IMG/VR virus record: IMGVR_UViG_3300033183_000354
Location: 1 to 64,000 of that record
Length of the DNA stretch: 64,000 nt
Source of the DNA: a virus
Strand: one strand, 5' to 3'
A model generated the notes under the pieces. That model saw nothing but the letters and a program-made list of their open reading frames with translations. It searched no databases and was not told the origin of the DNA. Each line of letters starts with the position of its first letter. Positions within the stretch are counted from its first letter, which is position 1. Positions 29,449-45,024 of the stretch are shown one piece after another. The position numbers and the translations under genes were made by a program.

Positions 29449-31935
29449 ATGTCTTTTTATACAAGTTACGATCGTTACGGTAACTACTTACTTTATCGCG
29501 GGTATAACCATCAAGGTGTACCCGTGATAACAAAATATAAACTAGAGCCTCAGCTCTATATTCCTACAGATAAGCGCACTGACTGGACTGCCATCGATGG
29601 TACTCCAGTCGCGCCTATCGAATTTTCTTCTGTCAATGAAATGAAGGCCTTCATCAAAAAGTATGAAGACGTAAGCAATTTTAAGTTTTACGGTCAAGAC
29701 CGTGTCATGTGGCAACGTATTCAGAAGAAATTTCCAAAAGAAATTGAATTCAATCAAAGCCTCATCAATGTAGTAAACCTCGATATCGAGGTCCATTCTG
29801 AAGATGGTTTCCCTGAGCCAGATCAGGCTCTTCATCCAGTCACAGCTATCACTCTCAAGTCGAGTAAAAAGATGTTTTACGAGGTGTGGGGCTGTGGAGA
29901 ATATGACGTATCTCAGTCACCTCATAAGCATCTTCGTATTCGCTATCACAAATGTGAAGATGAATATGATTTGCTCGAGCGATTCCTCAAATATTGGATG
30001 TCCGAATATCCTGAAGTCTTAACTGGTTGGAATATTCGAATGTTCGATATTCCTTATCTTGTTAATCGTATTACTAAGTTATTTGGTGAACACGTATCAA
30101 AGCGTATGTCGCCTTGGAATATGGTAAGAGAAACCACTGTAAGCTTCAAAGGCAAGACGATGTTGACTCAACAGATCTCTGGTATATCACAGCTCGACTA
30201 TATGGATCTCTTTCAAAAGTTTGGCTATTCATATGGCCCACAAGAGTCTTATTCTCTTAACCATATATCACATGTTGTCCTTGGTGAGAAGAAGATGTCA
30301 TACGAAGAGTATGGTTCACTTCGTAATCTTTATAAAGAAAATCATCAACTTTATATTGACTATAACATTAAAGACGTTGAACTCATTGATCGTATGGATG
30401 AGAAGCTTGATCTTCTCGGTTTGGCATTCACACTTGCATATAAAGCAGGTGTCAACTATACGGACATCTTTGGCACTACAGCTATATGGGACTCCATTAT
30501 CTATCGCGAACTGGCTTCTCGTAAGGTTGCTGTACCTGCTTCTCCACTTCGACGCGATCGAGAAACCTTAAAGGTTCATTTCGCAGGTGGTTATGTTAAA
30601 GAACCTCATGTTGGAGCTCATGATTGGGTCGTTTCATTTGACTTAAATTCTCTGTATCCAAACATCATTGCTCAATGGAATATGTCTCCGGAGACTATTA
30701 CAATGAACGGTACTAATATGTCAAAGGCAGCTAATGGTGTTGGCTTTGATAATAGTCGTGAAGGTGTATTTCCTAAACTCGTTAAGAAATACTATGCCGA
30801 ACGTAAAGAAGTCAAGAAAGAAATGATCGAATGGCAAAAGATGCAACAGAAAGGTAGCACTAAAGAGATCGAAAAACAAATTGCCTCTCTTAACAATAAG
30901 CAGATGGCAGTCAAGATCTTGATGAATTCATTGTTTGGTGCTATTGGTAATAAATGGTATCGATACTTTGATCTTCGAGTCGCTGAAGCCATTACTCTTA
31001 CTGGTCAACATGTCATTAAGACTTGTGAAGCTGCTATTAACAAAGAGCTAAATAAGTTACTAGAGACAGATAATAAAGACTATGTTATCGCTATCGATAC
31101 TGATTCGATCTATGTTAACTTTAAGAAGTTTGTTGAAAAGTTTAATCCAAAAGATCCAGTTAAGTTTCTTGACGAGGCATGTATTAATCATTTTAATAAA
31201 ATTTTAGAAGTTGCTCTTGAAAAACTCTTCAAAGAGATGAATTGTTTTGAGAATCGTATGGTCATGGAACGTGAGGTTATCGCAGATCGTGGCATTTGGA
31301 CAGCAAAGAAACGTTATATCCTTAACGTACATAACTCAGAAGGTGTACAGTACGAAGAGCCAAAACTTAAGATTATGGGTATTGAAGCTATTAAGTCTTC
31401 TACGCCTGAGATATGTCGAACTAAGTTCAAAGAGATCTTCAAACTCATCATCTCTTCAAACGAAGCCGAAGTTCAAAAGTTTATCATGAACTTTAGATCG
31501 GAGTTTAAGACACTTGCTCCTGAAGAAGTTGCATTTCCCCGAAGCGTTACCTTATATGGTGAGAAAATAGTTAATAATAAAAAAGTTAAGTTCTCATACA
31601 GTGATAGAAAGACCATCTACAAGAAAGGTTCACCTATCCATGTTCGAGGCTCTTTGCTTTACAACAAATACCTCAAAGAGTTGGGCCTAACAGATAGATA
31701 TGAGTTGATTGGTAATGGTGATAAAATTAAGTTTACTTATCTTAAGTTACCAAATCATATTAAGGAAAACGTGATAGCGTTTCCTATGCATCTCCCAAAA
31801 GAGATAAAACTACAGCAATATATTGACTATGATAAACAATTTGACAAGACTTTCCTCGAGCCACTTCGATTTATCCTCGATGCTGTTGGCTGGAATCATG
31901 AAGAAACAGCAACCCTCGATGAATTTTTTGGATAA
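29449..31935 (+). CDS. gp43: family B DNA polymerase gp43
   Basis: Exo DIE, GWNI..FDIPY, YNIKD; SFDLNSLYP, K.LMNS.FG, DTDS, KKRY; clamp-binding tail LDEFF. Confidence 0.97.
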   Translation: MSFYTSYDRYGNYLLYRGYNHQGVPVITKYKLEPQLYIPTDKRTDWTAIDGTPVAPIEFSSVNEMKAFIKKYEDVSNFKFYGQDRVMWQRIQKKFPKEIEFNQSLINVVNLDIEVHSEDGFPEPDQALHPVTAITLKSSKKMFYEVWGCGEYDVSQSPHKHLRIRYHKCEDEYDLLERFLKYWMSEYPEVLTGWNIRMFDIPYLVNRITKLFGEHVSKRMSPWNMVRETTVSFKGKTMLTQQISGISQLDYMDLFQKFGYSYGPQESYSLNHISHVVLGEKKMSYEEYGSLRNLYKENHQLYIDYNIKDVELIDRMDEKLDLLGLAFTLAYKAGVNYTDIFGTTAIWDSIIYRELASRKVAVPASPLRRDRETLKVHFAGGYVKEPHVGAHDWVVSFDLNSLYPNIIAQWNMSPETITMNGTNMSKAANGVGFDNSREGVFPKLVKKYYAERKEVKKEMIEWQKMQQKGSTKEIEKQIASLNNKQMAVKILMNSLFGAIGNKWYRYFDLRVAEAITLTGQHVIKTCEAAINKELNKLLETDNKDYVIAIDTDSIYVNFKKFVEKFNPKDPVKFLDEACINHFNKILEVALEKLFKEMNCFENRMVMEREVIADRGIWTAKKRYILNVHNSEGVQYEEPKLKIMGIEAIKSSTPEICRTKFKEIFKLIISSNEAEVQKFIMNFRSEFKTLAPEEVAFPRSVTLYGEKIVNNKKVKFSYSDRKTIYKKGSPIHVRGSLLYNKYLKELGLTDRYELIGNGDKIKFTYLKLPNHIKENVIAFPMHLPKEIKLQQYIDYDKQFDKTFLEPLRFILDAVGWNHEETATLDEFFG

Positions 31936-31941
31936 ACAAGG

Positions 31942-31970
31942 TTTACTTTTGACAGAGAATGGAGTATAAT
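31942..31970 (+). promoter_or_regulatory. sigma70-like promoter
   Basis: TTTACT-N17-TATAAT. Confidence 0.7.
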
Positions 31971-31976
31971 ACTATT

Positions 31977-32399
31977 ATGAGTAAAGATTGGGTACAAGAT
32001 ATTTCCGACATGCACACTAAGTTTGGTGTCCGTGATTGGGTCGCCGGAGAATTGGAAAAAGGTGATTGGTCTAGACTTCAAAAGTTTATCGAATTTCGCC
32101 TCAATTTTCTACAAGAAGAACTAGACGAGACAAGAGCAGCTGCTATTGTCGATAAAAATCCTGAAGAGATCGTTGATGGATTGATTGATTTATGCGTCGT
32201 AGCTATTGGTACAATGGATGCCTTTGGTGTCGACGCCCATAAAGCATGGGACGCAGTACATAATGCTAATATGGCAAAAGAACGCGGTGTAAAAGAATCT
32301 CGACCAAATCCACTTGGTCTACCAGATCTCATCAAACCTGAAGGTTGGCAAGGTCCAAGCCATAAGGATAATCATGGAAATCTCAATCACGCTCTTTAA
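31977..32399 (+). CDS. MazG-like all-alpha NTP pyrophosphohydrolase (candidate dCTPase)
   Basis: FLQEELDE, EIVDGLIDL, VHNANMAK, KPEGW. Confidence 0.8.
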   Translation: MSKDWVQDISDMHTKFGVRDWVAGELEKGDWSRLQKFIEFRLNFLQEELDETRAAAIVDKNPEEIVDGLIDLCVVAIGTMDAFGVDAHKAWDAVHNANMAKERGVKESRPNPLGLPDLIKPEGWQGPSHKDNHGNLNHAL

Positions 32400-33904: not shown

Positions 33905-34597
33905 ATGGATTTCCTAATTAAAGTAGGCGAATCATTTAGTTTAGCTGATATCGATTTAGATTGGCTAGAAAAACATACTGCTCTTGAATATGTAAATTTT
34001 TTACCAGATCCATATCGATCTGATACGCGTGTTTATAATGATACCTATAATGGTCTAGCAGCAGAGCACTATATGGTCGAAGAATATGGTTATACTAATG
34101 ATGACCGTAAATACAAAGATCTCTTTGCGCCATGTGGTACTTCTGTTGAAATTAAGTCTGGCTCTAGTGAAGAAACCATCCAAAAACATATAGAAACACT
34201 TACAGAAAGAAAAAGTTGGGGACCAAAATACGATATATCTGATTACGTAATATGCTTTCTTCGTGACAATAAAACTTACACGTGTCATTCGCTTTGGCAA
34301 TGGGATGGCAATAATTACGTAAAAGTAAAAGAAGAGCCAGAAGAAGATCGTACCGAAGTCATTCGTAAGCTTGAACGTATGCCTCTCGAAAAAGCTCGCC
34401 AAGTTGCCCTTCAATTGATGGAAGATTGGAATCCTCAAAAGATAGGTGGTAAAGCATCTAAAAATAGAACGATATATGATATCGAAACAGCGTGTACATC
34501 AGCCGATATTTGTGGTATAATGTACAGATTACAACTCGCTTATGAAGGTTTAGGTACTATTGGATCTTCATGGCAAAACCATTATAGGAATATCTGA
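33905..34597 (+). CDS. hypothetical protein with PD-(D/E)xK-like N-terminal domain
   Basis: GLAAEHY..KYKDL..SVEIKS pattern. Confidence 0.45.
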   Translation: MDFLIKVGESFSLADIDLDWLEKHTALEYVNFLPDPYRSDTRVYNDTYNGLAAEHYMVEEYGYTNDDRKYKDLFAPCGTSVEIKSGSSEETIQKHIETLTERKSWGPKYDISDYVICFLRDNKTYTCHSLWQWDGNNYVKVKEEPEEDRTEVIRKLERMPLEKARQVALQLMEDWNPQKIGGKASKNRTIYDIETACTSADICGIMYRLQLAYEGLGTIGSSWQNHYRNI

Positions 34598-34956
34598 TGA
34601 AAGAGTCAATCAAAGTTTTACAAGAGTGTGCTGAACTGCAGACTAAAAAAGGTAATGACTATCAAAACGAATATTCTCGTATTAAACAAGCAGACTATTA
34701 TCCTAACGGTGTATCTACTCTGCTTGACATTAATCATGCAAAGATGCTTCGTATGCAATCTGTCGTATCTGCTATGATGGCCGATCCTAACTATGAGCCA
34801 AACTTTGAATCAATCGAAGATTCGGCTAAAGACATGATTAACTATTGTTCGTTTATCGTTGCTTATTGTCGTGGTAAGATGGATGGTCAAAATCCAAATC
34901 ACGACTTCCTTAATCGCCCAAAGAAAGTGAAAGATAATGCAGAACACAGTGAATGA
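34597..34956 (+). CDS. nucleotide-modification-associated helical protein (Nmad1-like)
   Basis: LQECAELQTKKGNDY..ESIEDSAKDMINY; directly precedes the hydroxymethylase. Confidence 0.6.
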   Translation: MKESIKVLQECAELQTKKGNDYQNEYSRIKQADYYPNGVSTLLDINHAKMLRMQSVVSAMMADPNYEPNFESIEDSAKDMINYCSFIVAYCRGKMDGQNPNHDFLNRPKKVKDNAEHSE

Positions 34957-35614
34957 TATTCGTCAGCATTTTATCAATGAATTGAAGAACGAAAACTTCA
35001 CTACTGATAAAACTGGCCAAAAAACAATTGAGATTATCGGTGCTTCTTTCGAAGCTAATGAACCAGCTATCTTTGGTACTCCTAATAAAGAATATATCGA
35101 TAAAGAAATTGATTGGTATTGTACAGGTAGTACTAATATCAATGACATCTATGGTGAAGAACGTGAACCACCTGAAGCATGGAAATATGCTGCTAATAAG
35201 TATGGTGAAGTTAATTCTAACTATGGCACATTGATCTTTGACGATATATACTATAGACAGTACGAAAACGTCCTTGACGAATTGGCAGGTTCCAATGATA
35301 CTACACGACGTGCTACAATGGTTTACAACCGACCAAGCATCTGGGCAGAGTTTCAGGCTGATGGTAAAAACGATTTTATTTGTACTAATGCTGTCACTTA
35401 CTATATACGCAATAATGAACTCCAAGCTGTTGTCCAAATGCGATCTAACGATGTCGTGTTCGGATATAAGAATGATTATGCTTGGCAGCGTTATGTAATG
35501 GAACTTATTTGTCAAGATCTAAGTGGTGGTAATACTACTTTGAAACCAGGCAAATTGATTTGGCAAGTTCAAAACTTGCATGTTTATGAAAGGCATTTCC
35601 ACCTTGTCAAATAA
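34937..35614 (+). CDS. gp42: dCMP hydroxymethylase (T4 gp42-like)
   Basis: DKTG.KTIEIIGASF, NSNYG, DFICTN, MRSNDVVFGYKNDYAWQ, LHVY.RHF closely match T4 gp42, including the cytosine-specifying Asp. Confidence 0.9.
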   Translation: MQNTVNDIRQHFINELKNENFTTDKTGQKTIEIIGASFEANEPAIFGTPNKEYIDKEIDWYCTGSTNINDIYGEEREPPEAWKYAANKYGEVNSNYGTLIFDDIYYRQYENVLDELAGSNDTTRRATMVYNRPSIWAEFQADGKNDFICTNAVTYYIRNNELQAVVQMRSNDVVFGYKNDYAWQRYVMELICQDLSGGNTTLKPGKLIWQVQNLHVYERHFHLVK

Positions 35615-36041
35615 GTGGGATAAGAGATACCTTGCGCTAGCAGAACAAGTCTCGAAGTGGTCCAAAGATCCATCTCGCCAAATTGGTGCAGTTGCGGTAG
35701 GATCGAAGGGACAGGTTCTCGCGCAAGGCTACAATGGTTTCCCTCGCGGGATTGATGATAATGAAGACCTATATAATGACCGCGAGGTAAAGTATAAGTA
35801 TGTAGTTCATGCAGAGATGAATGTTATTTATAATGCCACGTATAATGGTGTATCACTTGATGGTTCTACTCTGTATGTTTATGGTTTACCAGTCTGTAGC
35901 GATTGTGCCAAGGGCGTTATACAGGTTGGCATCAAAGGGGTTGTCATGCCAGAACAGTTAATCCCTGAACATTGGCAACCATCTTGGCAATTAACGAAAA
36001 AAATGTTTGAAGAAGCAGGAGTTTTATATGACTTTATTTAA
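35580..36041 (+). CDS. cd: dCMP deaminase
   Basis: WSKDPS, GYNGFPRG, HAEMN, PVCSDC. Confidence 0.92.
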   Translation: MFMKGISTLSNKWDKRYLALAEQVSKWSKDPSRQIGAVAVGSKGQVLAQGYNGFPRGIDDNEDLYNDREVKYKYVVHAEMNVIYNATYNGVSLDGSTLYVYGLPVCSDCAKGVIQVGIKGVVMPEQLIPEHWQPSWQLTKKMFEEAGVLYDFI

Positions 36042-36312
36042 CGGAAATAATGATACGGGTCCAGTATTTGAAAAAGGTTATCCAAAGCATGAAGGTTATG
36101 AAGAATATATGAAACGAAGAATGCGGGAAGAGGATATGAAGATGGAAAAAAATATTCCAGAAAAAGTCGATCGAGTCGTTGAGCGAATCATGTGGAAACT
36201 TGATCTCCTTGAAAAACGTATGAAGTCTGTAGAGACAGACGTCGCTTATATGCAAACATATCAACCAACAAGTCCAGAAGAAAAGAAGATCAAGGATTAT
36301 CTTAACAAATGA
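36028..36312 (+). CDS. hypothetical protein
   Basis: AGGAG RBS; coiled-coil-like; overlaps its neighbours. Confidence 0.55.
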   Translation: MTLFNGNNDTGPVFEKGYPKHEGYEEYMKRRMREEDMKMEKNIPEKVDRVVERIMWKLDLLEKRMKSVETDVAYMQTYQPTSPEEKKIKDYLNK

Positions 36313-36734
36313 AATCTGTACTTGACTTCTTAGAAGGACATCAAATATCCGAGGACATCATCGTCCTCGGACAATGTCCATCGACCAAAACGACACCTTC
36401 TGTCAACGGCACATTTGCTCGCCTAAAACGATGGCTCTTGACAGTAGGTGTTCGTGATTGGGACTTTCATAATGTAATACCTCATAAGATCAATTCTTAT
36501 GATATCAAAGACGTTGACGTAGAGGCTTTACGTAAAGCTGTTGAAGGTAAGTCAATCGTTATCTCACTCGGAGGGTTTGTCGAAAGAGTATGTAAGAAAT
36601 ACTCTATAGATAATTACAAGATCGATCATCCATCTCCGAGAAATCGTAATCTCAATAGTATAGAATACGAAGCAGCAATGCTTCACAGTTTGAAGGAATA
36701 TCTTGATGAACATAGAGCTAACGGAATACTATGA
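36309..36734 (+). CDS. uracil-DNA-glycosylase-superfamily-like protein
   Basis: IIVLGQCPS, ISLG, HPSPRNRNLN. Confidence 0.55.
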   Translation: MKSVLDFLEGHQISEDIIVLGQCPSTKTTPSVNGTFARLKRWLLTVGVRDWDFHNVIPHKINSYDIKDVDVEALRKAVEGKSIVISLGGFVERVCKKYSIDNYKIDHPSPRNRNLNSIEYEAAMLHSLKEYLDEHRANGIL

Positions 36735-37875
36735 TGACTTTCTTCGCTATTTTCATAAAGCGAAAGAACAACAGGTAAAATGTAACGTCGCAGACGTAGA
36801 ACCATATGGACTAATACCCCATATGGAGTCCGATATGGACGATGACCTTATGCATTATATTGAACTATATGACGTCGTCGAACGTAAATATGCCGGGTTT
36901 TCTCAAATCGTTAATGATTGTTGGTCAGGTTGGACAGAAGGCCATCCATATTGGAAGAAGATGGAGGCCGGTAAAGCAACATCTCAACGTGAGGTCGTTG
37001 CTAAAAACTGGACAGGCAAGCATAAAGAATTTGATCTACCTGAATGGTTGTACCTTTTTATCCTCCATCGTGTGACAGGTTCTGCGATTAATTATGGTAC
37101 TAAACCTTCGGGTTATCATAACACATTACTATTCACCCTTCATAAAGCGCGTACCATCGAAGAGATGATATGGCATATGAAGAGACATAAAGCCCCTTTC
37201 TATACTTCAATTGGCTATCAATTCCCTAAGTTTCCAAAACCTCAAGGAGACTACAAGAAGGGTGGAGACTACTACCTTGGTGAGTATGCGCCACGCCTAG
37301 CACGTGAGATGGCAGAATGGTTGCAAAAGACAAATAATAGAAAGGACCTTCGAGAGATCGGAGAGTTTATGGGTCAGTGGAATGAACGAAATGGTCTTAA
37401 CAGGTATACTTTTCAGTATGCAGCTGTTGTTGCTGATGTTGCTGATTGGTACCCTCAATACGTCAACAAGGAATCACCCTTTTATTACGGAACTAACGCT
37501 GTTGAGTGTATTAGCTACCTTGCTCGTCCTACAGAGCGTATGAAGAAAGAACAGTTTTTAGATCAGGTGATGGCCAAGATCTATGAAGATACGAAGTCAT
37601 ATCCGTATAATGCCGAAGACGTATGTTGTGACTATATCCGTTGGGTTGAAAACTATGTTCGACCAGGTGCACATTACTCTCACGTCGACCTTGATAAAAT
37701 TTGGTCATCAAGTAATATCAAGAACCATCCATTTGGTAGACAAAAGGCAATGTTAGAGATGGGCCTTGTCGAATCTTTTAACGGTCTAAAGCATCATCCT
37801 TCTGATGATATGATCATTAAAGCTGCTGGTATTGATGTTGAGGAATATAAAAGAAGATGTATAACGCTACACTAG
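36703..37875 (+). CDS. helical DNA base-modification enzyme (amino-acid:DNA transferase/aGPT-Pplase-like)
   Basis: Cluster context; LYDVVERKY, FILHR, D(V)ADW, G.NA, AEDVCCDYIRW resemble the HhH-fold hypermodification family. Confidence 0.45.
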   Translation: MMNIELTEYYDDFLRYFHKAKEQQVKCNVADVEPYGLIPHMESDMDDDLMHYIELYDVVERKYAGFSQIVNDCWSGWTEGHPYWKKMEAGKATSQREVVAKNWTGKHKEFDLPEWLYLFILHRVTGSAINYGTKPSGYHNTLLFTLHKARTIEEMIWHMKRHKAPFYTSIGYQFPKFPKPQGDYKKGGDYYLGEYAPRLAREMAEWLQKTNNRKDLREIGEFMGQWNERNGLNRYTFQYAAVVADVADWYPQYVNKESPFYYGTNAVECISYLARPTERMKKEQFLDQVMAKIYEDTKSYPYNAEDVCCDYIRWVENYVRPGAHYSHVDLDKIWSSSNIKNHPFGRQKAMLEMGLVESFNGLKHHPSDDMIIKAAGIDVEEYKRRCITLH

Positions 37876-38846
37876 ATGACTTTATTGATCCAAACCCGCA
37901 TTCAATAGTATACGAAAATACAGTTACTCCTATCCTCAATAAGGGCAAAGTCACTAATCACTTACTTGAACCATGGTCTCTCGAAGAACGTATTCAAAAG
38001 TTCTTTGAGTTTTGTCGTGCCTATGACGTAAGAGAAGAACCGCTCCTTAAATCTAACCCTCAACAGTTTTCTCATCGTCTACATTGGGATGAAATGCCAT
38101 ATGTTGATGAGATGAAAGAAGAGAAAGACATCAAGCGACTTTTACATCATACTATCGTATGGTCATTTAGTAATGAACATTGGCTAACATTCAGGACACT
38201 TCGCGATCATGGCGTTGAAGCCATGAAAAAGAGGTTTGAAACAGAAAGACATGCTCGATCTGACCTCTTTCAAGTATATTATCCAAAGGGGACAGTAGTA
38301 AAAGACTGGTTGTGTAATGTACCTCAACAAATAGCCGAAGACTGCTACACAATGTTACAGTCAAATCGACCGCTTAAGATGATGGAGCTGGCATCAAAGC
38401 TTGAAGCTCATACGAAAAAGAAGTATGGCTTTCGTAACGTGATGTATCCATATAAGAACCTTTCTCGCCATATCGCGATGGCCCGACCTGACCTTGTTGA
38501 TCCAGAATCATGGGTCACCCCAGGTACACTCTCATTTTATGGTCTATGGCAAATATTTGGAGATAAGAATTTATTTGGTAAAACTAAATTCGAATTAGAT
38601 GAAAATACTGGTGACTATACTCCAGTTAATGCTCAAGCTATTGAGCTTGTACGCCAGTTTAGTGTTTTGGCCAAACATCCGGATAATCCAATGAAGAGGC
38701 AGTATAATATTAATATCGAAGATAAAGCTTGTATGTGGTGTAAACACCTCTTCATTAGTCATGGCGTCAAGTCGACCACGAAGAAGATCCCATACGAGTG
38801 GATTTATCCTCGAACATTTTCTCTAAAAAAGAGTTTACAATCCTAG
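37857..38846 (+). CDS. second helical DNA base-modification-like enzyme
   Basis: FFEFCR..EPLL...FSHRLHWDE N-terminus and NIEDKACMWCK C-terminus resemble the same family. Confidence 0.4.
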   Translation: MYNATLDDFIDPNPHSIVYENTVTPILNKGKVTNHLLEPWSLEERIQKFFEFCRAYDVREEPLLKSNPQQFSHRLHWDEMPYVDEMKEEKDIKRLLHHTIVWSFSNEHWLTFRTLRDHGVEAMKKRFETERHARSDLFQVYYPKGTVVKDWLCNVPQQIAEDCYTMLQSNRPLKMMELASKLEAHTKKKYGFRNVMYPYKNLSRHIAMARPDLVDPESWVTPGTLSFYGLWQIFGDKNLFGKTKFELDENTGDYTPVNAQAIELVRQFSVLAKHPDNPMKRQYNINIEDKACMWCKHLFISHGVKSTTKKIPYEWIYPRTFSLKKSLQS

Positions 38847-38862
38847 GATAGTTTGGTATAAT
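38834..38862 (+). promoter_or_regulatory. sigma70-like promoter (leaderless mRNA likely)
   Basis: TTTACA-N17-TATAAT, 6 nt before ATG 38869. Confidence 0.7.
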
Positions 38863-38868
38863 ATACAC

Positions 38869-39810
38869 ATGTCACATGATAAGCATATTATTGATCATAT
38901 TAATAAGGACGTTGAGGTATTACGTTTACAAGGCGTAACGAATCGACATGAAGCAAAGCAATATTATTTAAGTTTAGCAGAAGGCTGGGAAGATCCAAAT
39001 CCTGATCCAGTCGTTAAGGAGTATGAAGGTGTTAGAGTCGTTCGAGATGATCTTATCACTGGTAGCAAAGTACGGGGTGGAGATCTTCTTATATCTCGTA
39101 TTAACCAACTTAATCTTGTTTATGTTCAGCCTCGTACAGGTCTTGCGGGCGTATCGCTCTTGGACGTGGCGAAGCGCCACGGAAAACGCGTTCGTCTTTT
39201 TATGCCAAGTTCAAAGAGAATCTCTCATCACCAGGCTTGCTGTATTGAGCGTGGTGCTGATTATGAGTTCCATCGCGTGGCTGCTATGCCAAATCTTAAT
39301 TCCATAGCAAAGAAATGGGCAGAACAAAACGAAGATTCATACTTCATCCCACTTGGATTAAAACATGAACTCGTAACAGCAGGCATCGTAAAGGCTGCAT
39401 CGAAGATACCAGAGCCACAAGAAGTGTGGACAGTCGTATCAACAGGTGTACTACATCGAGCACTTCAGATCGCATGGCCAAATGCTGAGTTCCATGCCGT
39501 CGCAGTCGCTCGTAATATGAAAGAAGGAGAAGTTGGTCATGGTAATATCATCTCTGCCCCAGAACCATTTACCACTTCTATTAAAAAAGGATTGCCTCCT
39601 TTCCCAACCATCGATACGTACGATGGAAAGGCGTGGAGATATATCCCTAAAAATACAGGCAGAGACATCTTATTTTGGAATGTAGGCACTGAACCAGTGC
39701 TCAATGACGAGTCTATATATGATAGGATAGACTCTTATAGAAGGTGGAAAAAAGATGAAGGTACTACTCACGAGCTTGGGACCAATCTCGAACAAAATAC
39801 ATTCGCATAA
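38869..39810 (+). CDS. PLP-dependent enzyme, fold type II
   Basis: VVRDDL..GSKVR (PLP lysine), VSTGVL, YDGKAW, ILFWNV. Confidence 0.75.
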   Translation: MSHDKHIIDHINKDVEVLRLQGVTNRHEAKQYYLSLAEGWEDPNPDPVVKEYEGVRVVRDDLITGSKVRGGDLLISRINQLNLVYVQPRTGLAGVSLLDVAKRHGKRVRLFMPSSKRISHHQACCIERGADYEFHRVAAMPNLNSIAKKWAEQNEDSYFIPLGLKHELVTAGIVKAASKIPEPQEVWTVVSTGVLHRALQIAWPNAEFHAVAVARNMKEGEVGHGNIISAPEPFTTSIKKGLPPFPTIDTYDGKAWRYIPKNTGRDILFWNVGTEPVLNDESIYDRIDSYRRWKKDEGTTHELGTNLEQNTFA

Positions 39811-40774
39811 AGCAGCACAAGCAATCATTTATGCTGATCAGCTAAAAGAAGCAGGTCATGATGTGACGATTAACCTTGTTAGCAATAAGGTTTATGACTA
39901 TTCACCTTATGATGAAGTATACGTATATCATGGTTCTGATTGGAGTGGTAACCTTAATCTCTTCGGCGGTATCCAAGCATATCCAAATACAGAGTTTGTA
40001 AAAGCTTTGTCAGAGTATAAAGGTACCGTTAAATCCATCTTAATCGATTTTCCTGACTATGCAAGTATGTTTCAAGATCGCTTGAACAAAGCAAATTTAA
40101 CATGGGATGTCAATTTTGCAGCCTTGTCAGAGATGACTAAGGCAGAAGTCATCGATCCAAATATGATAAAACGATATCGTAATATTGCGTTTGGCGATAG
40201 TCATGCGATTAGCATGTACCGTCCCGGTTGGGAAAACGTATCAGTACCATTCTCTACTCTACATGGATCTATCAATCGAGGGTTTGAGACGTTTATCCCA
40301 GAAGGTGGTCAGTATGATAATATCGAGACTTATTTTGGTAACATTGATATTCGACATCACCTCTGTCGCTTTGATGATCCTATCGCTGAAGCAAAAAAAT
40401 TAGCAAAACGTTATATGGGTGAAGTTTCTCGTATAAGTAATAAGTATGAAGCGCACGTAAAGGTGTGGGAACCACTGCCAATCGAAAACGAATCTCGTAA
40501 AGTGCCAAAGACTGGTTGGTATAAAGGTACACCCTTCTATGGCACTTGGCAACAAAGGACCGACGTGCGTCAAGCTTTTATCGACTCACTTGAATGTGAT
40601 GTATATAGATGGACAGATAACTTGAAAAATCCGATCGGTGAGTTAGACTTTGAATATATGGAAAAACCTCAATCAATTCACTTATCAAGAGCTTCTTATC
40701 CTCATTGGCAAGGCCGACAGTGGACAGAAGAAGTAGTGTCTGAGGCAAATAGTCTAGATGAATTTTTTATGTAG
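39755..40774 (+). CDS. hypothetical protein with SGNH/GDSL-like C-terminal domain
   Basis: FGDSH, FGNID, SIHL blocks; ends SLDEFF (clamp-binding-like). Confidence 0.45.
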   Translation: MKVLLTSLGPISNKIHSHKAAQAIIYADQLKEAGHDVTINLVSNKVYDYSPYDEVYVYHGSDWSGNLNLFGGIQAYPNTEFVKALSEYKGTVKSILIDFPDYASMFQDRLNKANLTWDVNFAALSEMTKAEVIDPNMIKRYRNIAFGDSHAISMYRPGWENVSVPFSTLHGSINRGFETFIPEGGQYDNIETYFGNIDIRHHLCRFDDPIAEAKKLAKRYMGEVSRISNKYEAHVKVWEPLPIENESRKVPKTGWYKGTPFYGTWQQRTDVRQAFIDSLECDVYRWTDNLKNPIGELDFEYMEKPQSIHLSRASYPHWQGRQWTEEVVSEANSLDEFFM

Positions 40775-40787
40775 GAGATAATAATAT

Positions 40788-41831
40788 ATGTCTATTATGG
40801 ATAAATTGAAGAAGAATAGTAAGGTTAAAGAGTCTTCTGTTCTTTCTGATTCCAAATTCTTTACCGAAAAGGATATGGTAAAGACCGAAGTGCCAATGAT
40901 TAACGTGGCATTGTCGGGTTCCGTGGATGGCGGACTTGCGCCAGGACTAACAGTACTAGCTGGCCCATCCAAACATTTTAAGACCTCATTCGCTTTGATC
41001 ATGGCATCTGCATATCTCAAAGAGCACGATGATGCTGTGTTACTTTTTTATGATTCAGAATTTGGTTCACCACAATCATATTTTGAAAACTTTGATATCG
41101 ATACGAGTCGAGTCCTTCATACGCCTATTACAAACGTAGAAGAACTTAAGTTTGATATCATCGCTCAACTCGAAGAGTTGGATCGTAATGATAAGGTAGT
41201 AATTGTAATCGATTCTGTTGGCAACTTAGCATCAAAGAAAGAACTCGAAGATGCTATTAATGAAAAGTCAGTTGCTGATATGTCTCGAGCAAAAGCGCTA
41301 AAGGGTTTGTTCCGTATGTGTACACCATACTTGAACATGAAGAATATCCCGTTGATTGCCGTGAACCATACTTATATGGAGATTGGTCTATTTCCAAAAG
41401 CAGTTGTGTCAGGTGGTACTGGCATCTATTATTCAGCAGATAATATTTGGATTCTCGGTCGTCAACAGGATAAACAAGGCACTGAGATCAAAGGTTATCA
41501 TTTCGTGATTAATGTGGAGAAATCGCGTTATGTCAAAGAAAAGTCTAAGATTCCCATCAGTGTTAGTTGGGAAGGTGGAGTACAAAAGTGGTCTGGTCTG
41601 CTTGACGTTGCTCTCGAGGGTCAATATGTCACTAAGCCGTCTAATGGCTGGTATTGCAGGGTTAGCCGGGAAACTGGTGAACTACTTGAACCAAAAGTAC
41701 GAGAAAAACAAACTTTAGAAGCAGAATTTTGGGAACCAATCTTTGCTGAAACGGATTTCAAAGATTATTTGAAGAATCGTTTTTCAATCTTAAACCAAAA
41801 AGGTATTGAAGATGTCGCAGAAGTTAGTTGA
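40788..41831 (+). CDS. uvsX: RecA-like recombinase UvsX
   Basis: AGPSKHFKT, FYDSEFG, IDSVGNLASKKE, SGGTG..YSAD. Confidence 0.96.
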   Translation: MSIMDKLKKNSKVKESSVLSDSKFFTEKDMVKTEVPMINVALSGSVDGGLAPGLTVLAGPSKHFKTSFALIMASAYLKEHDDAVLLFYDSEFGSPQSYFENFDIDTSRVLHTPITNVEELKFDIIAQLEELDRNDKVVIVIDSVGNLASKKELEDAINEKSVADMSRAKALKGLFRMCTPYLNMKNIPLIAVNHTYMEIGLFPKAVVSGGTGIYYSADNIWILGRQQDKQGTEIKGYHFVINVEKSRYVKEKSKIPISVSWEGGVQKWSGLLDVALEGQYVTKPSNGWYCRVSRETGELLEPKVREKQTLEAEFWEPIFAETDFKDYLKNRFSILNQKGIEDVAEVS

Positions 41832-42329: not shown

Positions 42330-43697
42330 TTGCAAGCGAACATTGAACAAACCATCCTTCGTAATCTTCTGACTGATGAAGAGTATATGCGTAAAGTATT
42401 GCCTTTCATTAAGTCAGATTATTTTCAAGGCACATATAAAACCCTCTTTAAAGAAGCGGGCAAATATGTTGGTAAGTATAATAAACTACCAACTACTGAG
42501 TCTCTTGTCATTGAACTACAAGAGACAAGTAATATGTCAGATGAACAGTTTCAAATGTCAATGGATATTATTCCACAACTGTTTACTCGTGAGCCTATTG
42601 ATAATGATTGGCTACTTGATGCCACCGAAAAATGGTGTCAAGATCGCGCATTGTATAATGCTGTAATGGAGTCTATCTCTATTATTGATGGTAAACATGA
42701 ATCTTTGACAAAGAATGCTCTTCCTGATATTTTATCAAAAGCTCTTGGCGTTTCATTTGATAAAAACATTGGTCACGACTATATTGAAAATGTTGAAGAA
42801 CGCTATGAGTTTTATCATACAGAAGAAGATCGAATCCCATTTGATCTAGAATACTTTAATAATATCACGAAAGGTGGAGTACCACGTAAAACATTGAACA
42901 TTGCTCTTGCTGGTACAGGTGTCGGTAAATCTCTGTTTATGTGTCATGTGGCTGCATCTGCCTTAGTCGAAGGACGTAATGTTCTCTACATAACAATGGA
43001 GATGGCAGAAGAACGTATCGCTGAACGTATCGACGCCAATCTTCTAAACGTACCTATCGATCAACTTGAGAATATGTCAAAGGATATGTTTACGACTAAA
43101 GTACATAACCTCGCAAAAAAGACAACAGGTAAACTAATCATTAAAGAATACCCGACTGGCTCAGCGCATGCTGGTCACTTTAGAGCACTGCTCAATGAAT
43201 TAAAATTAAAGAAACAATTCGAACCAGATATTATCTTTATTGATTATCTTAATATCTGTGCTTCTTCTCGTATGAAAGGAATGGGTGGTGCTATTAATTC
43301 TTATAACTATATCAAGGCCATTGCCGAAGAACTTCGAGGCCTTGCTGTGGAATTTGATATACCTGTTTTCTCTGCAACTCAAACTAATCGCAGTGGATAT
43401 TCGAATTCTGATGTTGGTCTTGAAGATACATCTGAAAGCTTTGGCCTTCCGGCTACTGCAGATTTAATGTTTGCTCTTATCTCTACAGAAGAGCTAGAGC
43501 AATCAGGTCAAATGATGGTTAAACAATTAAAGAATAGATATAATGATCCTACGCATAATAAACGTTTTGTGATTGGTGTTGATCGATCGAAGATGAGACT
43601 CTTTGATGCTGACGAAAATGAACAGACTTTAACTGATGATACGCCTGCATTTGATAATGGCAAGATTAATGAAAGATTTAAGGAGTTTAAATTATGA
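42330..43697 (+). CDS. gp41: replicative helicase gp41
   Basis: AGTGVGKS, TMEMAEE, IDYLNI, ATQTNR, SESFGLPATAD, QLKNRY; TTG start. Confidence 0.96.
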   Translation: MQANIEQTILRNLLTDEEYMRKVLPFIKSDYFQGTYKTLFKEAGKYVGKYNKLPTTESLVIELQETSNMSDEQFQMSMDIIPQLFTREPIDNDWLLDATEKWCQDRALYNAVMESISIIDGKHESLTKNALPDILSKALGVSFDKNIGHDYIENVEERYEFYHTEEDRIPFDLEYFNNITKGGVPRKTLNIALAGTGVGKSLFMCHVAASALVEGRNVLYITMEMAEERIAERIDANLLNVPIDQLENMSKDMFTTKVHNLAKKTTGKLIIKEYPTGSAHAGHFRALLNELKLKKQFEPDIIFIDYLNICASSRMKGMGGAINSYNYIKAIAEELRGLAVEFDIPVFSATQTNRSGYSNSDVGLEDTSESFGLPATADLMFALISTEELEQSGQMMVKQLKNRYNDPTHNKRFVIGVDRSKMRLFDADENEQTLTDDTPAFDNGKINERFKEFKL

Positions 43698-44361: not shown

Positions 44362-45024
44362 ATGAAAGCAAGATTAATTAGTTATAGTCAACCACCAAAG
44401 GACGGTCTCTATGTCGGTGACAATATCCAAGAACTTATCGCGTATTGCGCCCGTGTATCGAATCCCTCGAACCAAGATAACACGGAAACCTCAGAAAAAC
44501 TACTACGATATCTCATTAGAGAAAAACACTGGTCGCCATTTGAAATGGTTAGCGCTTGCTTAGAGATCGAAACAACTCGAGATATCGCAAGACAATTACT
44601 TCGACATCGTTCATTCTCTTTTCAAGAATTCTCTCAGCGATATGCAGATCCTACTCAAGATCTTCAATTTGAATTCAAAGAAGCTAGACTTCAAGACACG
44701 AAAAATAGACAAAATAGTTTAGATGTTAAAGACGTAGATTTACAGCTTGAATGGCTTAAGCAACAATCAGAAGTAGTAGTAAGAGCAAGAGAAAGTTATG
44801 AATGGGCAATTGAAAATGGTATCGCTAAAGAACAAGCTAGGGCAGTTTTGCCAGAAGGTATTATGCAATCTCGACTCTATGTTAATGGCACCATCAGGTC
44901 CTGGATCCATTATATCGAATTACGTTCAGGCCATGGAACACAAAAAGAACACATTCAGCTAGCCAAAGCTTGTGCTGACGCTATTGAACCTATCTTTCCG
45001 ATGATCAGAGAATTTTGTCATTAA
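44362..45024 (+). CDS. thyX: flavin-dependent thymidylate synthase
   Basis: HWSPFE, RHRSFSFQEFSQRY, KEQARAVLP, QKEH. Confidence 0.96.
   Translation: MKARLISYSQPPKDGLYVGDNIQELIAYCARVSNPSNQDNTETSEKLLRYLIREKHWSPFEMVSACLEIETTRDIARQLLRHRSFSFQEFSQRYADPTQDLQFEFKEARLQDTKNRQNSLDVKDVDLQLEWLKQQSEVVVRARESYEWAIENGIAKEQARAVLPEGIMQSRLYVNGTIRSWIHYIELRSGHGTQKEHIQLAKACADAIEPIFPMIREFCH

What the first reader, a model, noticed from the sequence alone, without database searches (positions are those of the whole stretch)
34597..40774. Candidate non-glucosyl cytosine hypermodification pathway
The thymidylate-synthase-family gene matches T4 gp42 and keeps Asp at the specificity position (FGYKND; Asn in dUMP enzymes), so it should act on dCMP. 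ThyX separately supplies dTMP. No T4-like glucosyltransferase is recognisable in the window. Instead there are two helical transferase-like genes, a fold-II PLP enzyme and an SGNH-like protein. Established: helical amino-acid:DNA transferases plus PLP enzymes hypermodify 5hmU in phages such as ViI and M6. Inference: similar chemistry is applied here to 5hmC, giving an amino-acid-derived and possibly acylated cytosine. No obvious P-loop DNA kinase is seen, and the transferase family call is tentative.
Basis: partly seen in the sequence, partly recalled or inferred. Interest (0 to 1): 0.8.

Follow-up and report, generated by a model that had tools for sequence, protein, structure and literature searches.

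The report
Kinase-less hydroxymethylcytosine DNA hypermodification cassette
An uncultured marine T4-like phage makes T4's hydroxymethylcytosine, but in the slot where T4 keeps its glucose-adding enzyme it carries four linked genes related to the enzymes that attach amino acids to thymine in other phages, with no DNA kinase, so its DNA probably carries a cytosine decoration that has not been described chemically.

Summary
Gene 34937-35614 is a close relative of T4 dCMP hydroxymethylase and keeps every residue that marks the 5-hydroxymethyl type. ThyX and dCMP deaminase are present. Between gene 42 and uvsX, where T4 has beta-gt, lie four translationally packed genes. A (36703) and B (37857) are distant paralogs. 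Both models best match PaMx11 gp46, the 5-PmdU glycinyltransferase. The third gene is a fold-II PLP enzyme homologous to the M6 gp52 DNA-adduct decarboxylase. C (39755) is a chimera: its first ~100 residues are homologous to the N-terminus of T4 beta-glucosyltransferase, followed by an SGNH-like domain. It ends in the same clamp-binding-type tail as this phage's DNA polymerase. The four genes travel together in 80 viral contigs in four gene orders. C and A are fused in several phages. All 37 distinct neighbouring hydroxymethylases are cytosine-type. The complete 152.7-kb genome has no match to the known 5-hmdU DNA kinase family. Most likely C with A activates 5hmC in new DNA, B adds an amino acid and the PLP enzyme decarboxylates it. 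The product is unknown. The scan has already found this cassette in at least 11 other genomes, with the same reading. Added here: the 5hm-versus-5-hydroxy signature test, and cultured Aeromonas phages carrying gene 42 plus a C-A-like fusion.

The parts
31959..32399 (+). MazG-like nucleotide pyrophosphohydrolase, candidate dCTPase (the role of T4 gp56)
   Evidence: phrog_671 nucleotide pyrophosphohydrolase E 2.3e-23 and phrog_12019 MazG-like. The role is inferred.
34597..34956 (+). Small hydrolase-like protein, probably a second NTP pyrophosphatase-type domain, conserved just upstream of gene 42
   Evidence: phrog_1485 E 1.4e-12 and phrog_18404 'hydrolase' E 7.6e-11. About 68% DNA identity to an unnamed gene of Serratia phage PS2 and relatives. 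Present in most cassette loci.
34937..35614 (+). dCMP hydroxymethylase (T4 gp42 ortholog), 5-hydroxymethyl type
   Evidence: PDB 1b49 E 3.4e-70. It keeps the nucleophile Cys in DFICT, Asp at the ThyA L143 position, Asp at the D169 position (RSND) and Asp at the N177/T4 D179 position (KND). The signature definitions come from PMC13326640.
35580..36041 (+). dCMP deaminase
   Evidence: Pfam dCMP_cyt_deam_1 E 1.6e-18 and phrog_174 E 5.9e-44.
36309..36734 (+). Small UDG-superfamily-like protein; membership in the cassette is uncertain
   Evidence: Pfam UDG only at E 0.22, but spanning profile positions 9-138 of 141. It has an HPSPRN motif. Detected in 22 of the 80 loci, upstream of A or B.
36703..37875 (+). 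Protein A: HhH glycosylase-fold protein of the aGPT-Pplase kind, partner of C. The likely true start is the ATG at 36706.
   Evidence: AF2 pLDDT 83, pTM 0.84. VIA-align best match 8z2m_A (PaMx11 gp46), Z 8.3, rmsd 4.3, 206 residues aligned, followed by 14 HhH-fold entries (DNA glycosylases and two DUF2419 queuine-salvage enzymes). Nearest named Atlas clusters carry HMUDK_hel and ADDT. A BFVD ortholog (63% identity) is named 'Amino acid:DNA transferase domain-containing'. Fused behind C in P0267, P0271, P0285, P0307, P0327, P0335 and P0351. Invariant G126, S127, G137, N140, D245, E305 and C309.
37857..38846 (+). Protein B: second HhH-fold paralog, candidate amino acid:DNA transferase
   Evidence: AF2 pLDDT 91, pTM 0.88. 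8z2m_A Z 9.5, rmsd 4.2, 229 of 287 residues aligned. BFVD ortholog (47% identity) named 'Amino acid:DNA transferase domain-containing', followed by HMUDK_hel proteins and the SP10 kinase. Paralogy with A: hhalign probability 94%, E 9e-8, with shared P..VDPES..GT and ED..C motifs. ED..C is present in 57 of 57 B and 56 of 56 A sequences.
38869..39810 (+). Fold-II PLP enzyme, homolog of the M6 gp52 DNA-adduct decarboxylase
   Evidence: BLASTP against M6 gp52 gives E 2e-6 over residues 55-273 versus 18-277. K68 in GSKVRG aligns with gp52 K36 (K36 is named in PMC8989533). phrog_7093 E 3.6e-40. A Lys-bearing motif stands at the matching N-terminal position in the family members examined.
39755..40774 (+). 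Protein C: chimera of a beta-glucosyltransferase-like N-terminal part (aa 1-~100), an SGNH-like domain (aa ~135-325) and a clamp-binding-type tail (SLDEFFM, 40748-40771)
   Evidence: N-terminal part versus T4 beta-GT 1-100: BLASTP E 4e-4, hhalign E 7e-5. Invariant SH, NLFGG, GDSH, G.IDIRHH, PIE..R..PKTG and ME...S.H. Lipase_GDSL weak in 3 of 20 members. Atlas feature score 0.94 to GDSL clusters. The tail matches this phage's gp43 tail TLDEFFG and resembles T4 gp43's SLDFLFG.
44362..45024 (+). ThyX flavin-dependent thymidylate synthase
   Evidence: Pfam Thy1 E 1.8e-43 and phrog_85 E 2.3e-72.

Best explanation
This is a post-replicative pathway that hypermodifies 5-hydroxymethylcytosine, built from thymidine-hypermodification-type parts.

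Step 1 (shown by homology): pyrophosphatases, the gp42 ortholog, dCMP deaminase and ThyX provide hm-dCTP and dTTP, so the DNA is made with 5hmC.

Step 2 (inferred): protein C activates the hydroxymethyl group, most likely as an ester made through its Ser149/His SGNH-type site. C is held at the replication fork by a clamp-binding tail. It works with the helical, base-flipping protein A, to which it is fused in other phages. C thus takes the place of the P-loop 5-hmdU DNA kinase and its helical domain.

Step 3 (inferred): protein B, using its invariant Cys292 as PaMx11 gp46 is proposed to use Cys247, displaces the leaving group with an amino acid.

Step 4 (inferred): the gp52-like PLP enzyme (Lys68) decarboxylates the attached amino acid.

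There is no radical-SAM isomerase, and the PLP step needs a free alpha-amine. The closest analogy is therefore the serine route of phage ViI. That route would give 5-(2-aminoethoxy)methylcytosine, a nucleoside of nominal mass 300.
For: - T4-type hydroxymethylase signature. All 37 distinct neighbouring homologs keep RSND...ND.
- The cassette sits in the T4 beta-gt slot: 43 ... 42 [cassette] uvsX 40 41.
- A and B both best match the solved amino acid:DNA transferase gp46 (Z 8.3 and 9.5), and are paralogs sharing ED..C.
- gp46/M6 gp51 and PaMx11 gp50/M6 gp55 have an E..E..LC motif at the equivalent C-terminal site.
- The PLP enzyme is homologous to M6 gp52, with the lysines aligned.
- Four different gene orders occur in 80 loci, and C-A fusions exist.
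- There is a parallel in SP10, whose 637-aa 5-hmdU DNA kinase matched the B and A models. PMC8989533 describes kinase fusions.
- No HMUDK_HMUD1, HMUDK_hel or ADDT Pfam match anywhere in the complete genome.
- C carries the polymerase's own C-terminal tail.
Against: - No chemistry has been measured.
- A and B do not reach Pfam ADDT or HMUDK_hel thresholds: 0 of 41 B members, and 1 of 52 A members weakly. hhalign against gp46, gp51, gp50 and gp55 is not significant.
- VIA Z of 8-9.5 is within the range that helical models can reach by chance (notes).
- The SGNH call for C rests on weak hits and motifs. Its Asn of block III is Ser in one subfamily, and no DxxH block was seen.
- No donor for the activation step is known.
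- Which of A and B is the transferase is not resolved. Both keep the Cys.
Confidence: 0.6

Rival explanations
1. The cassette acts on 5-hydroxymethyluracil, not 5hmC. The adjacent dCMP deaminase would deaminate hm-dCMP to hm-dUMP, and the enzymes then perform ordinary thymidine-type hypermodification.
For: dCMP deaminase lies between gene 42 and the cassette in most loci. All characterised relatives of A, B and the PLP enzyme act on 5hmU derivatives (PMC8989533).
Against: - No dUMP-type (Asn) hydroxymethylase is present. The other thymidylate synthase here is ThyX, which needs the deaminase's dUMP as in T4.
- Several loci show gene 42 next to the cassette with no deaminase detected between them (L074, L075, L081).
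- The 5-hmdU kinase family is absent.
- C's N-terminal part derives from an enzyme that binds 5hmC in DNA.
Confidence: 0.1
2. C is a late tailoring enzyme (an esterase or O/N-acyltransferase acting on the finished adduct). The activating step is done by an unrecognised or host kinase.
For: SGNH enzymes are typically esterases or acyltransferases. PaMx11 finishes its pathway with an acetyltransferase.
Against: - C is fused to A, not to B or the PLP enzyme.
- Cultured Aeromonas phage 31 has gene 42 plus a C-A-like fusion, but no B or PLP enzyme was found there. C-A therefore works without an amino-acid adduct to tailor.
- No kinase family match in the complete genome.
Confidence: 0.15
3. This is not a modification pathway. 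A and B are DNA glycosylase-type repair or anti-defence enzymes, and the PLP and SGNH proteins are unrelated metabolic genes that happen to be neighbours.
For: The fold matches include many true DNA glycosylases at Z 5-8.
Against: - The four genes stay linked through four rearranged orders in 80 loci.
- C-A fusions exist.
- The PLP enzyme is homologous to a DNA-adduct decarboxylase.
- In both searches the best match is the transferase gp46, not a glycosylase.
Confidence: 0.05

Closest known systems
Thymidine hypermodification pathways of phages M6, ViI, PaMx11, PhiW-14 and SP10 (5-hmdU DNA kinase with its helical domain, amino acid:DNA transferase, PLP decarboxylase; PMC8989533, PMC11472151)
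   Same: - A paralogous pair of HhH-fold helical proteins with a C-terminal acidic...Cys motif.
- A gp52-type fold-II PLP enzyme.
- Location beside a thymidylate-synthase-family hydroxymethylase.
- Fusions between the activating enzyme and a helical domain.
   Different: - The hydroxymethylase here is cytosine-type.
- The P-loop kinase is absent, and a beta-GT-like/SGNH-like chimera stands in its place.
- A and B lie outside the Pfam ADDT and HMUDK_hel models.
T4 beta-glucosyltransferase (and the T4 gene order 42, beta-gt, uvsX)
   Same: Same genomic slot. The first ~100 residues of C are homologous to the beta-GT N-terminus, including the NxFGG motif.
   Different: Only the first ~100 residues match beta-GT, and no similarity to its UDP-glucose-binding C-terminal domain was detected. 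An SGNH-like domain follows instead, so C is not expected to transfer sugar.
5-hydroxymethylcytosine carbamoyltransferase of metagenomic phages (PMC8670742)
   Same: A non-glycosyl modification of 5hmC, encoded next to a dCMP hydroxymethylase, a pyrophosphohydrolase and a dCMP deaminase.
   Different: That is a single TobZ-type enzyme using carbamoyl phosphate and ATP. It has no HhH-fold or PLP enzymes.
5-hydroxycytosine arabinosylation of RB69 and DLP3 (PMC13326640)
   Same: A thymidylate-synthase homolog with the N177D change supplies the modified dCMP in T4-like phages that lack glucosyltransferases.
   Different: Those synthases carry Asn at the ThyA D169 position. The window's enzyme and all 37 cassette-linked homologs keep Asp (RSND), the 5-hydroxymethyl signature.

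Membership tests
T4-type dCMP 5-hydroxymethylase (gp42) | Overall sequence similarity to the solved T4 enzyme | tested here: met
   PDB 1b49 E 3.4e-70, residues 4-224 versus 7-225.
T4-type dCMP 5-hydroxymethylase (gp42) | Asp at the pyrimidine-specificity position (T4 D179, E. coli ThyA N177) and the nucleophile Cys (T4 C148) | tested here: met
   KND aligned to RND, and DFICT aligned to DFMCT.
T4-type dCMP 5-hydroxymethylase (gp42) | Asp kept at the ThyA D169 position (Asn marks 5-hydroxy-dCMP synthases) and an acidic residue at the L143 position | tested here: met
   RSND and NDFICT in the window protein. Of 37 distinct cassette-linked homologs, 37 keep RSND...ND. The criterion comes from PMC13326640.
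Amino acid:DNA transferase (Pfam PF18724 ADDT, aGPT-Pplase clade 2) | Match to the family's sequence model | tested here: not met
   No hit for A or B even at E 10. 0 of 41 B and 0 of 52 A family members at E 0.1. No hit in the genome. The controls gp46 and M6 gp51 score E 1.6e-27 and 1.4e-46.
Amino acid:DNA transferase (Pfam PF18724 ADDT, aGPT-Pplase clade 2) | Two-bundle helical HhH glycosylase-like fold of PaMx11 gp46 | tested here: met
   8z2m_A is the top match for both. A: Z 8.3, rmsd 4.3, 206 aligned. B: Z 9.5, rmsd 4.2, 229 of 287 aligned. gp46 itself reaches only about Z 6 to glycosylases (PMC11472151).
Amino acid:DNA transferase (Pfam PF18724 ADDT, aGPT-Pplase clade 2) | Conserved Cys near the C-terminus facing the flipped base (gp46 Cys247) | tested here: inconclusive
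   ED..C is invariant in A (C309) and B (C292). gp46 has EVETILC. No residue-level structural superposition was available to prove equivalence.
Amino acid:DNA transferase (Pfam PF18724 ADDT, aGPT-Pplase clade 2) | Transfer of an amino acid or amine to activated 5-hydroxymethylpyrimidine in DNA | not testable with these tools
   Needs an enzyme assay.
5-hmdU DNA kinase helical domain (Pfam PF18723 HMUDK_hel, aGPT-Pplase clade 1) | Match to the family's sequence model | tested here: not met
   1 of 52 A-family members at E 0.01, none for the window protein. No hit in the genome. Aeromonas phage 31 ORF233c scores E 0.0036, below the cut-off.
5-hmdU DNA kinase helical domain (Pfam PF18723 HMUDK_hel, aGPT-Pplase clade 1) | Fold likeness, and pairing or fusion with the activating enzyme | tested here: met
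   The nearest named Atlas clusters to A carry HMUDK_hel (11% and 36% of members). BFVD hits include PhiW-14 and phiRSL1 helical domains and the 637-aa SP10 kinase. A is fused to C in seven representative proteins.
5-hmdU DNA kinase, P-loop (Pfam PF18748) | Presence of a P-loop kinase of this family in the phage | tested here: not met
   No match at E 1 in the complete 152.7-kb genome. The controls PaMx11 gp49 and M6 gp54 match.
gp52-type fold-II PLP decarboxylase of DNA adducts | Homology to M6 gp52 with the Schiff-base lysine | tested here: met
   BLASTP E 2e-6 over nearly full length, with K68 aligned to K36. phrog_7093 E 3.6e-40. The Pfam PALP score is below the cut-off (19.7 versus 35 bits).
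gp52-type fold-II PLP decarboxylase of DNA adducts | Decarboxylation of an amino acid attached to DNA | not testable with these tools
   Needs an enzyme assay.
T4 beta-glucosyltransferase (GT-B, Pfam PF09198) | Homology of the N-terminal (acceptor-side) domain | tested here: met
   BLASTP E 4e-4 (1-98 versus 1-100). hhalign E 7e-5, probability 63%. PF09198 in 4 of 20 members, best E 0.002, all below the 27-bit cut-off.
T4 beta-glucosyltransferase (GT-B, Pfam PF09198) | C-terminal UDP-glucose-binding domain | tested here: not met
   No similarity beyond residue ~100. Residues 135-325 resemble SGNH/GDSL proteins instead.
SGNH/GDSL hydrolase-acyltransferase superfamily | Block I GDS with the nucleophile Ser | tested here: met
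   GDSH is invariant in 60 of 60 distinct homologs and in the fusions.
SGNH/GDSL hydrolase-acyltransferase superfamily | Blocks II, III (GxND) and V (DxxH), and a match to a family model | tested here: inconclusive
   G171 is invariant. G(N/S)IDIRHH stands where block III would be, and one member aligns there to Lipase_GDSL at E 0.13. No DxxH was seen; the invariant E303 and H309 are six residues apart. Lipase_GDSL appears in 3 of 20 members, best E 0.019, below the cut-off. Atlas feature score 0.94. No model of C could be made.

The most novel reading that the evidence does not exclude
Protein C is a new kind of DNA-acting enzyme. It combines a hydroxymethylcytosine-recognising half of a glucosyltransferase with an SGNH-type acyl-enzyme domain, and is tethered to the sliding clamp. 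It activates 5hmC in nascent DNA as a carboxylic ester instead of a phosphate. This opens a kinase-free route to amino-acid-derived cytosines such as 5-(2-aminoethoxy)methylcytosine. In phages that have only the C-A unit (Aeromonas phages 31, 44RR2.8t and 25), it would leave an O-acylated 5hmC as the final base.
Probability: 0.3. Interest if true: 0.85.

Novelty: new variant of a known kind. Interest (0 to 1): 0.75.

Why it matters
- Amino-acid-type hypermodification is established only for thymine. No paper in the searchable library reports it for 5hmC.
- The cassette is abundant in marine and freshwater T4-like phages. The A family alone has 949 hits at 90% clustering and 156 clusters at 50%. 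An undescribed DNA base may therefore be common in aquatic viromes. That would affect restriction, CRISPR and glycosylase defences, and sequencing chemistry.
- It would also show a second way, without a kinase, to turn a hydroxymethylpyrimidine in DNA into an electrophile.
- It offers new enzymes for labelling 5hmC.
- Petrov et al. (PMC2993671) left open how Aeromonas phages 44RR, 31 and 25 cope with having gene 42 but no glucosyltransferase. The C-A-like fusion makes that question directly testable in cultured phages.

Tried and rejected
- **Complex prediction:** Complex prediction of A with C gave no verdict (score 0.00). It counts neither for nor against binding.
- **PDB sequence searches:** searches with A, B, the PLP enzyme, C, the A and C profiles and the UDG-like ORF gave nothing meaningful.
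- **Foldseek:** the search of A against the PDB had no hit at E 0.001. Only weak AGOG and MutY rows pointed to the fold.
- **tblastn in GenBank phages:** A and B found no cultured relative.
- **Pfam, NCBIfam and PHROGs:** nothing for A and B.
- **hhalign against known relatives:** comparisons of the A and B profiles with gp46/gp51 and gp50/gp55 were not significant, although the gp50/gp55 alignments did line up the two shared motifs. The first A-versus-B comparison with a shallow alignment also failed. It succeeded only with the deep alignment.
- **Aeromonas phage 31:** profile searches for A, B and the PLP enzyme rang nothing. hhalign of the ORF233c C-terminal half against the A profile was not significant. 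Its A-like nature rests on a weak Pfam hit and motifs.
- **TS search in the L059 contig:** its 150-kb record has no thymidylate-synthase-family match, but the genome is only about half complete, so this says nothing.
- **Promoter and terminator scans:** they gave no more than chance.
- **Considered and rejected:** that C is a working glucosyltransferase (no donor domain detected), and that the synthase makes 5-hydroxycytosine (Asp, not Asn, at the diagnostic site).
- **Not tested:** a dNMP kinase (gp1) able to phosphorylate hm-dCMP.

Full report
**Setting.** The window is the first 64 kb of a complete 152.7-kb IMG/VR phage genome with terminal repeats. It is T4-like. On the + strand lie:
- DNA polymerase gp43 (29449-31935);
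- a MazG-like pyrophosphohydrolase (31959-32399);
- a primase-like gene;
- the region of the finding;
- UvsX (40788-41831);
- the gp41 helicase (42330-43697);
- ThyX (44362-45024).

T4 has the order 43, imm, 42, beta-gt, segA, uvsX, 40, 41. The four genes in question therefore occupy the slot of T4's beta-glucosyltransferase.

**The hydroxymethylase.** The 225-aa product of 34937-35614 matches the solved T4 dCMP hydroxymethylase at E 3.4e-70. It keeps the nucleophile Cys and the Asp that selects cytosine.

A 2026 paper shows that thymidylate-synthase homologs with this Asp can instead make 5-hydroxy-dCMP (RB69, DLP3). The diagnostic change is Asn at the E. coli ThyA D169 position (PMC13326640). 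The window enzyme reads RSND, so it keeps Asp there. It also has Asp at the L143 position, as in T4. All 37 distinct homologs found next to the cassette in other contigs read RSND...ND. The precursor is therefore 5hmC, as far as sequence can tell.

dCMP deaminase, ThyX and two pyrophosphatase-like proteins complete a T4-style nucleotide supply.

**Proteins A and B.**
- *Database searches:* neither has a Pfam, NCBIfam or PHROG match, nor any relative in GenBank phages. Both have hundreds of relatives in aquatic metagenomes.
- *Models:* AF2 models are confident (pLDDT 83 and 91).
- *Solved structures:* an all-against-representatives structural search puts the same entry first for both: 8z2m_A, PaMx11 gp46, the 5-phosphomethyl-dU glycinyltransferase (A: Z 8.3, 206 aligned; B: Z 9.5, 229 of 287 aligned). 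HhH DNA glycosylases follow.
- *Caveat on Z:* the tool warns that Z of 8-9 can arise by chance in helical proteins. Against that, the whole top of both lists is one superfamily, and gp46's authors report only about Z 6 between gp46 and glycosylases.
- *Predicted viral structures:* BFVD holds orthologs named 'Amino acid:DNA transferase domain-containing' (63% and 47% identity), then 5-hmdU-kinase helical domains and the 637-aa SP10 kinase. The ESM Atlas search for A gives clusters carrying HMUDK_hel and ADDT.
- *Paralogy:* with a deep alignment, A and B prove to be paralogs (hhalign 94%, E 9e-8). They share P..VDPES..GT and ED..C motifs.
- *The cysteine:* ED..C is invariant in both. A similar acidic...Cys motif closes gp46/M6 gp51 and the helical-domain proteins gp50/gp55. 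In gp46 this is Cys247, which turns toward the flipped base.
- *Verdict:* by sequence models A and B are not members of Pfam ADDT or HMUDK_hel. By fold and motif they belong to the same superfamily.

**The PLP enzyme.** It is a full-length homolog of M6 gp52 (E 2e-6). Lys68 in GSKVRG aligns with gp52's Lys36. gp52 decarboxylates glycine attached to DNA, and ViI gp226 does the same for serine (PMC8989533).

**Protein C.** Both statements need adjusting.
- *N-terminal part:* residues 1-98 are homologous to residues 1-100 of T4 beta-glucosyltransferase, including NxFGG. Nothing matches the sugar-donor domain.
- *SGNH-like part:* residues ~135-325 carry invariant GDSH, G.IDIRHH, PIE..R..PKTG and ME...S.H. 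They give weak GDSL hits and resemble GDSL clusters in the language-model search (0.94). The same domain occurs in a giant-virus glycosyltransferase protein (TM 0.80).
- *Tail:* C ends in SLDEFFM. This phage's own polymerase ends in TLDEFFG, and T4's ends in SLDFLFG, the tail known (from my own knowledge of T4 and RB69 work) to bind the gp45 clamp. The tail is kept in C homologs down to about 40% identity.

**Linkage.**
- A scan of viral contigs with the B family returned 80 loci. A, B, the PLP enzyme and C are together in nearly all loci long enough to show them.
- They occur in four orders: A-B-PLP-C, A-B-C-PLP, B-C-PLP-A and C-A-B-PLP. They usually lie between gene 42/cd and uvsX.
- Seven representative proteins of 639-790 aa are C-A fusions.
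- This mirrors the known systems, where the P-loop kinase pairs with a helical domain. Pfam now names aGPT-Pplase clade 1 '5-hmdU DNA kinase, helical domain'. The SP10 kinase (637 aa) matched both helical models, and PMC8989533 describes kinase fusions.
- The complete genome has no match to the kinase family.

**Cultured relatives.**
- *The C-like part:* C has homologs in 43 GenBank phage records, mostly Aeromonas T4-like phages. In phage 31 the match is the N-terminal third of the 795-aa ORF233c.
- *The A-like part:* the C-terminal part of ORF233c gives a weak HMUDK_hel hit (E 0.0036). It carries AGPGA and EIACCQF motifs, like A's EDVCCDY.
- *The rest of the phage 31 genome:* it has a gp42 ortholog with RSND..ND and a separate canonical thymidylate synthase. 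No B or PLP enzyme was detected.
- *The open question:* Petrov et al. noted that 44RR, 31 and 25 have genes 42 and 56 but no glucosyltransferase, and that their modification is unknown.
- *What follows:* the C-A unit therefore seems able to work alone. That argues against C being a late tailoring enzyme, and it gives a cultured test system.

**Mechanism and verdict.** The best reading is:
1. 5hmC is incorporated into DNA.
2. Clamp-tethered C, working with A, activates it.
3. B substitutes an amino acid.
4. The PLP enzyme decarboxylates that amino acid.

Only the identities of the parts are shown. The order of steps, the donor and the product are inferred. There is no radical-SAM isomerase and the PLP step needs a free amine, so the ViI serine route is the nearest model.

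Rivals are listed with odds: a 5hmU substrate reached through the deaminase, C as a late acyl-tailoring enzyme, or no modification role at all.

No paper in the library describes such a pathway for cytosine.

The scan's own records show the same cassette, with the same reading, in at least 11 other genomes. I reached my reading before consulting them.

Noticed in passing
window 40748-40771 and 31909-31932: Protein C ends in SLDEFFM and the phage's own DNA polymerase ends in TLDEFFG. T4 gp43 ends in SLDFLFG, its clamp-binding tail. The tail is conserved in C homologs down to about 40% identity but is absent from the most divergent subfamily.
   Followed up: partly
window 36309-36734: A 141-aa ORF with a weak, full-length likeness to the uracil-DNA glycosylase superfamily (Pfam E 0.22; HPSPRN motif). 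It was detected in 22 of the 80 related loci, upstream of A or B. Its function and its link to the cassette are unknown.
   Followed up: partly
L002 4408-8388 (Aeromonas phage 31, AY962392): ORF233c (795 aa) is a C-like plus A-like fusion. It lies next to a phage-encoded sodium:solute symporter (Pfam SSF, E 7e-53) and near motA, far from the phage's gene 42.
   Followed up: partly
L003 (Erythrobacter phage vB_EliS_R6L, gp1): The closest GenBank relatives of the PLP enzyme (33% identity) lie inside a large protein annotated 'DNA modification methylase' in two Erythrobacter phages and a Microcystis phage. In R6L the neighbourhood also holds a PAPS-reductase-like gene. This may be another DNA-modification context for this PLP family.
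   Followed up: no
window 31959-32399 and 34597-34956: Two separate pyrophosphohydrolase-like proteins hit different halves of the same PHROG (phrog_18404), one after the polymerase and one just before gene 42. Which of them, if either, is the dCTPase is open.
   Followed up: no
window 38834-38862: A near-consensus sigma-70-type promoter (TTTACA, 17 nt, TATAAT with an upstream TG) lies in the 22-nt gap region before the PLP gene. The count of such sites in the region is no higher than chance.
   Followed up: no
window 36703-36708: The ORF of protein A opens with TTG followed directly by ATG. The ATG at 36706 is the more likely start. It overlaps the end of the UDG-like ORF. A/B overlap by 19 nt and PLP/C by 56 nt, which suggests translational coupling.
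   Followed up: no
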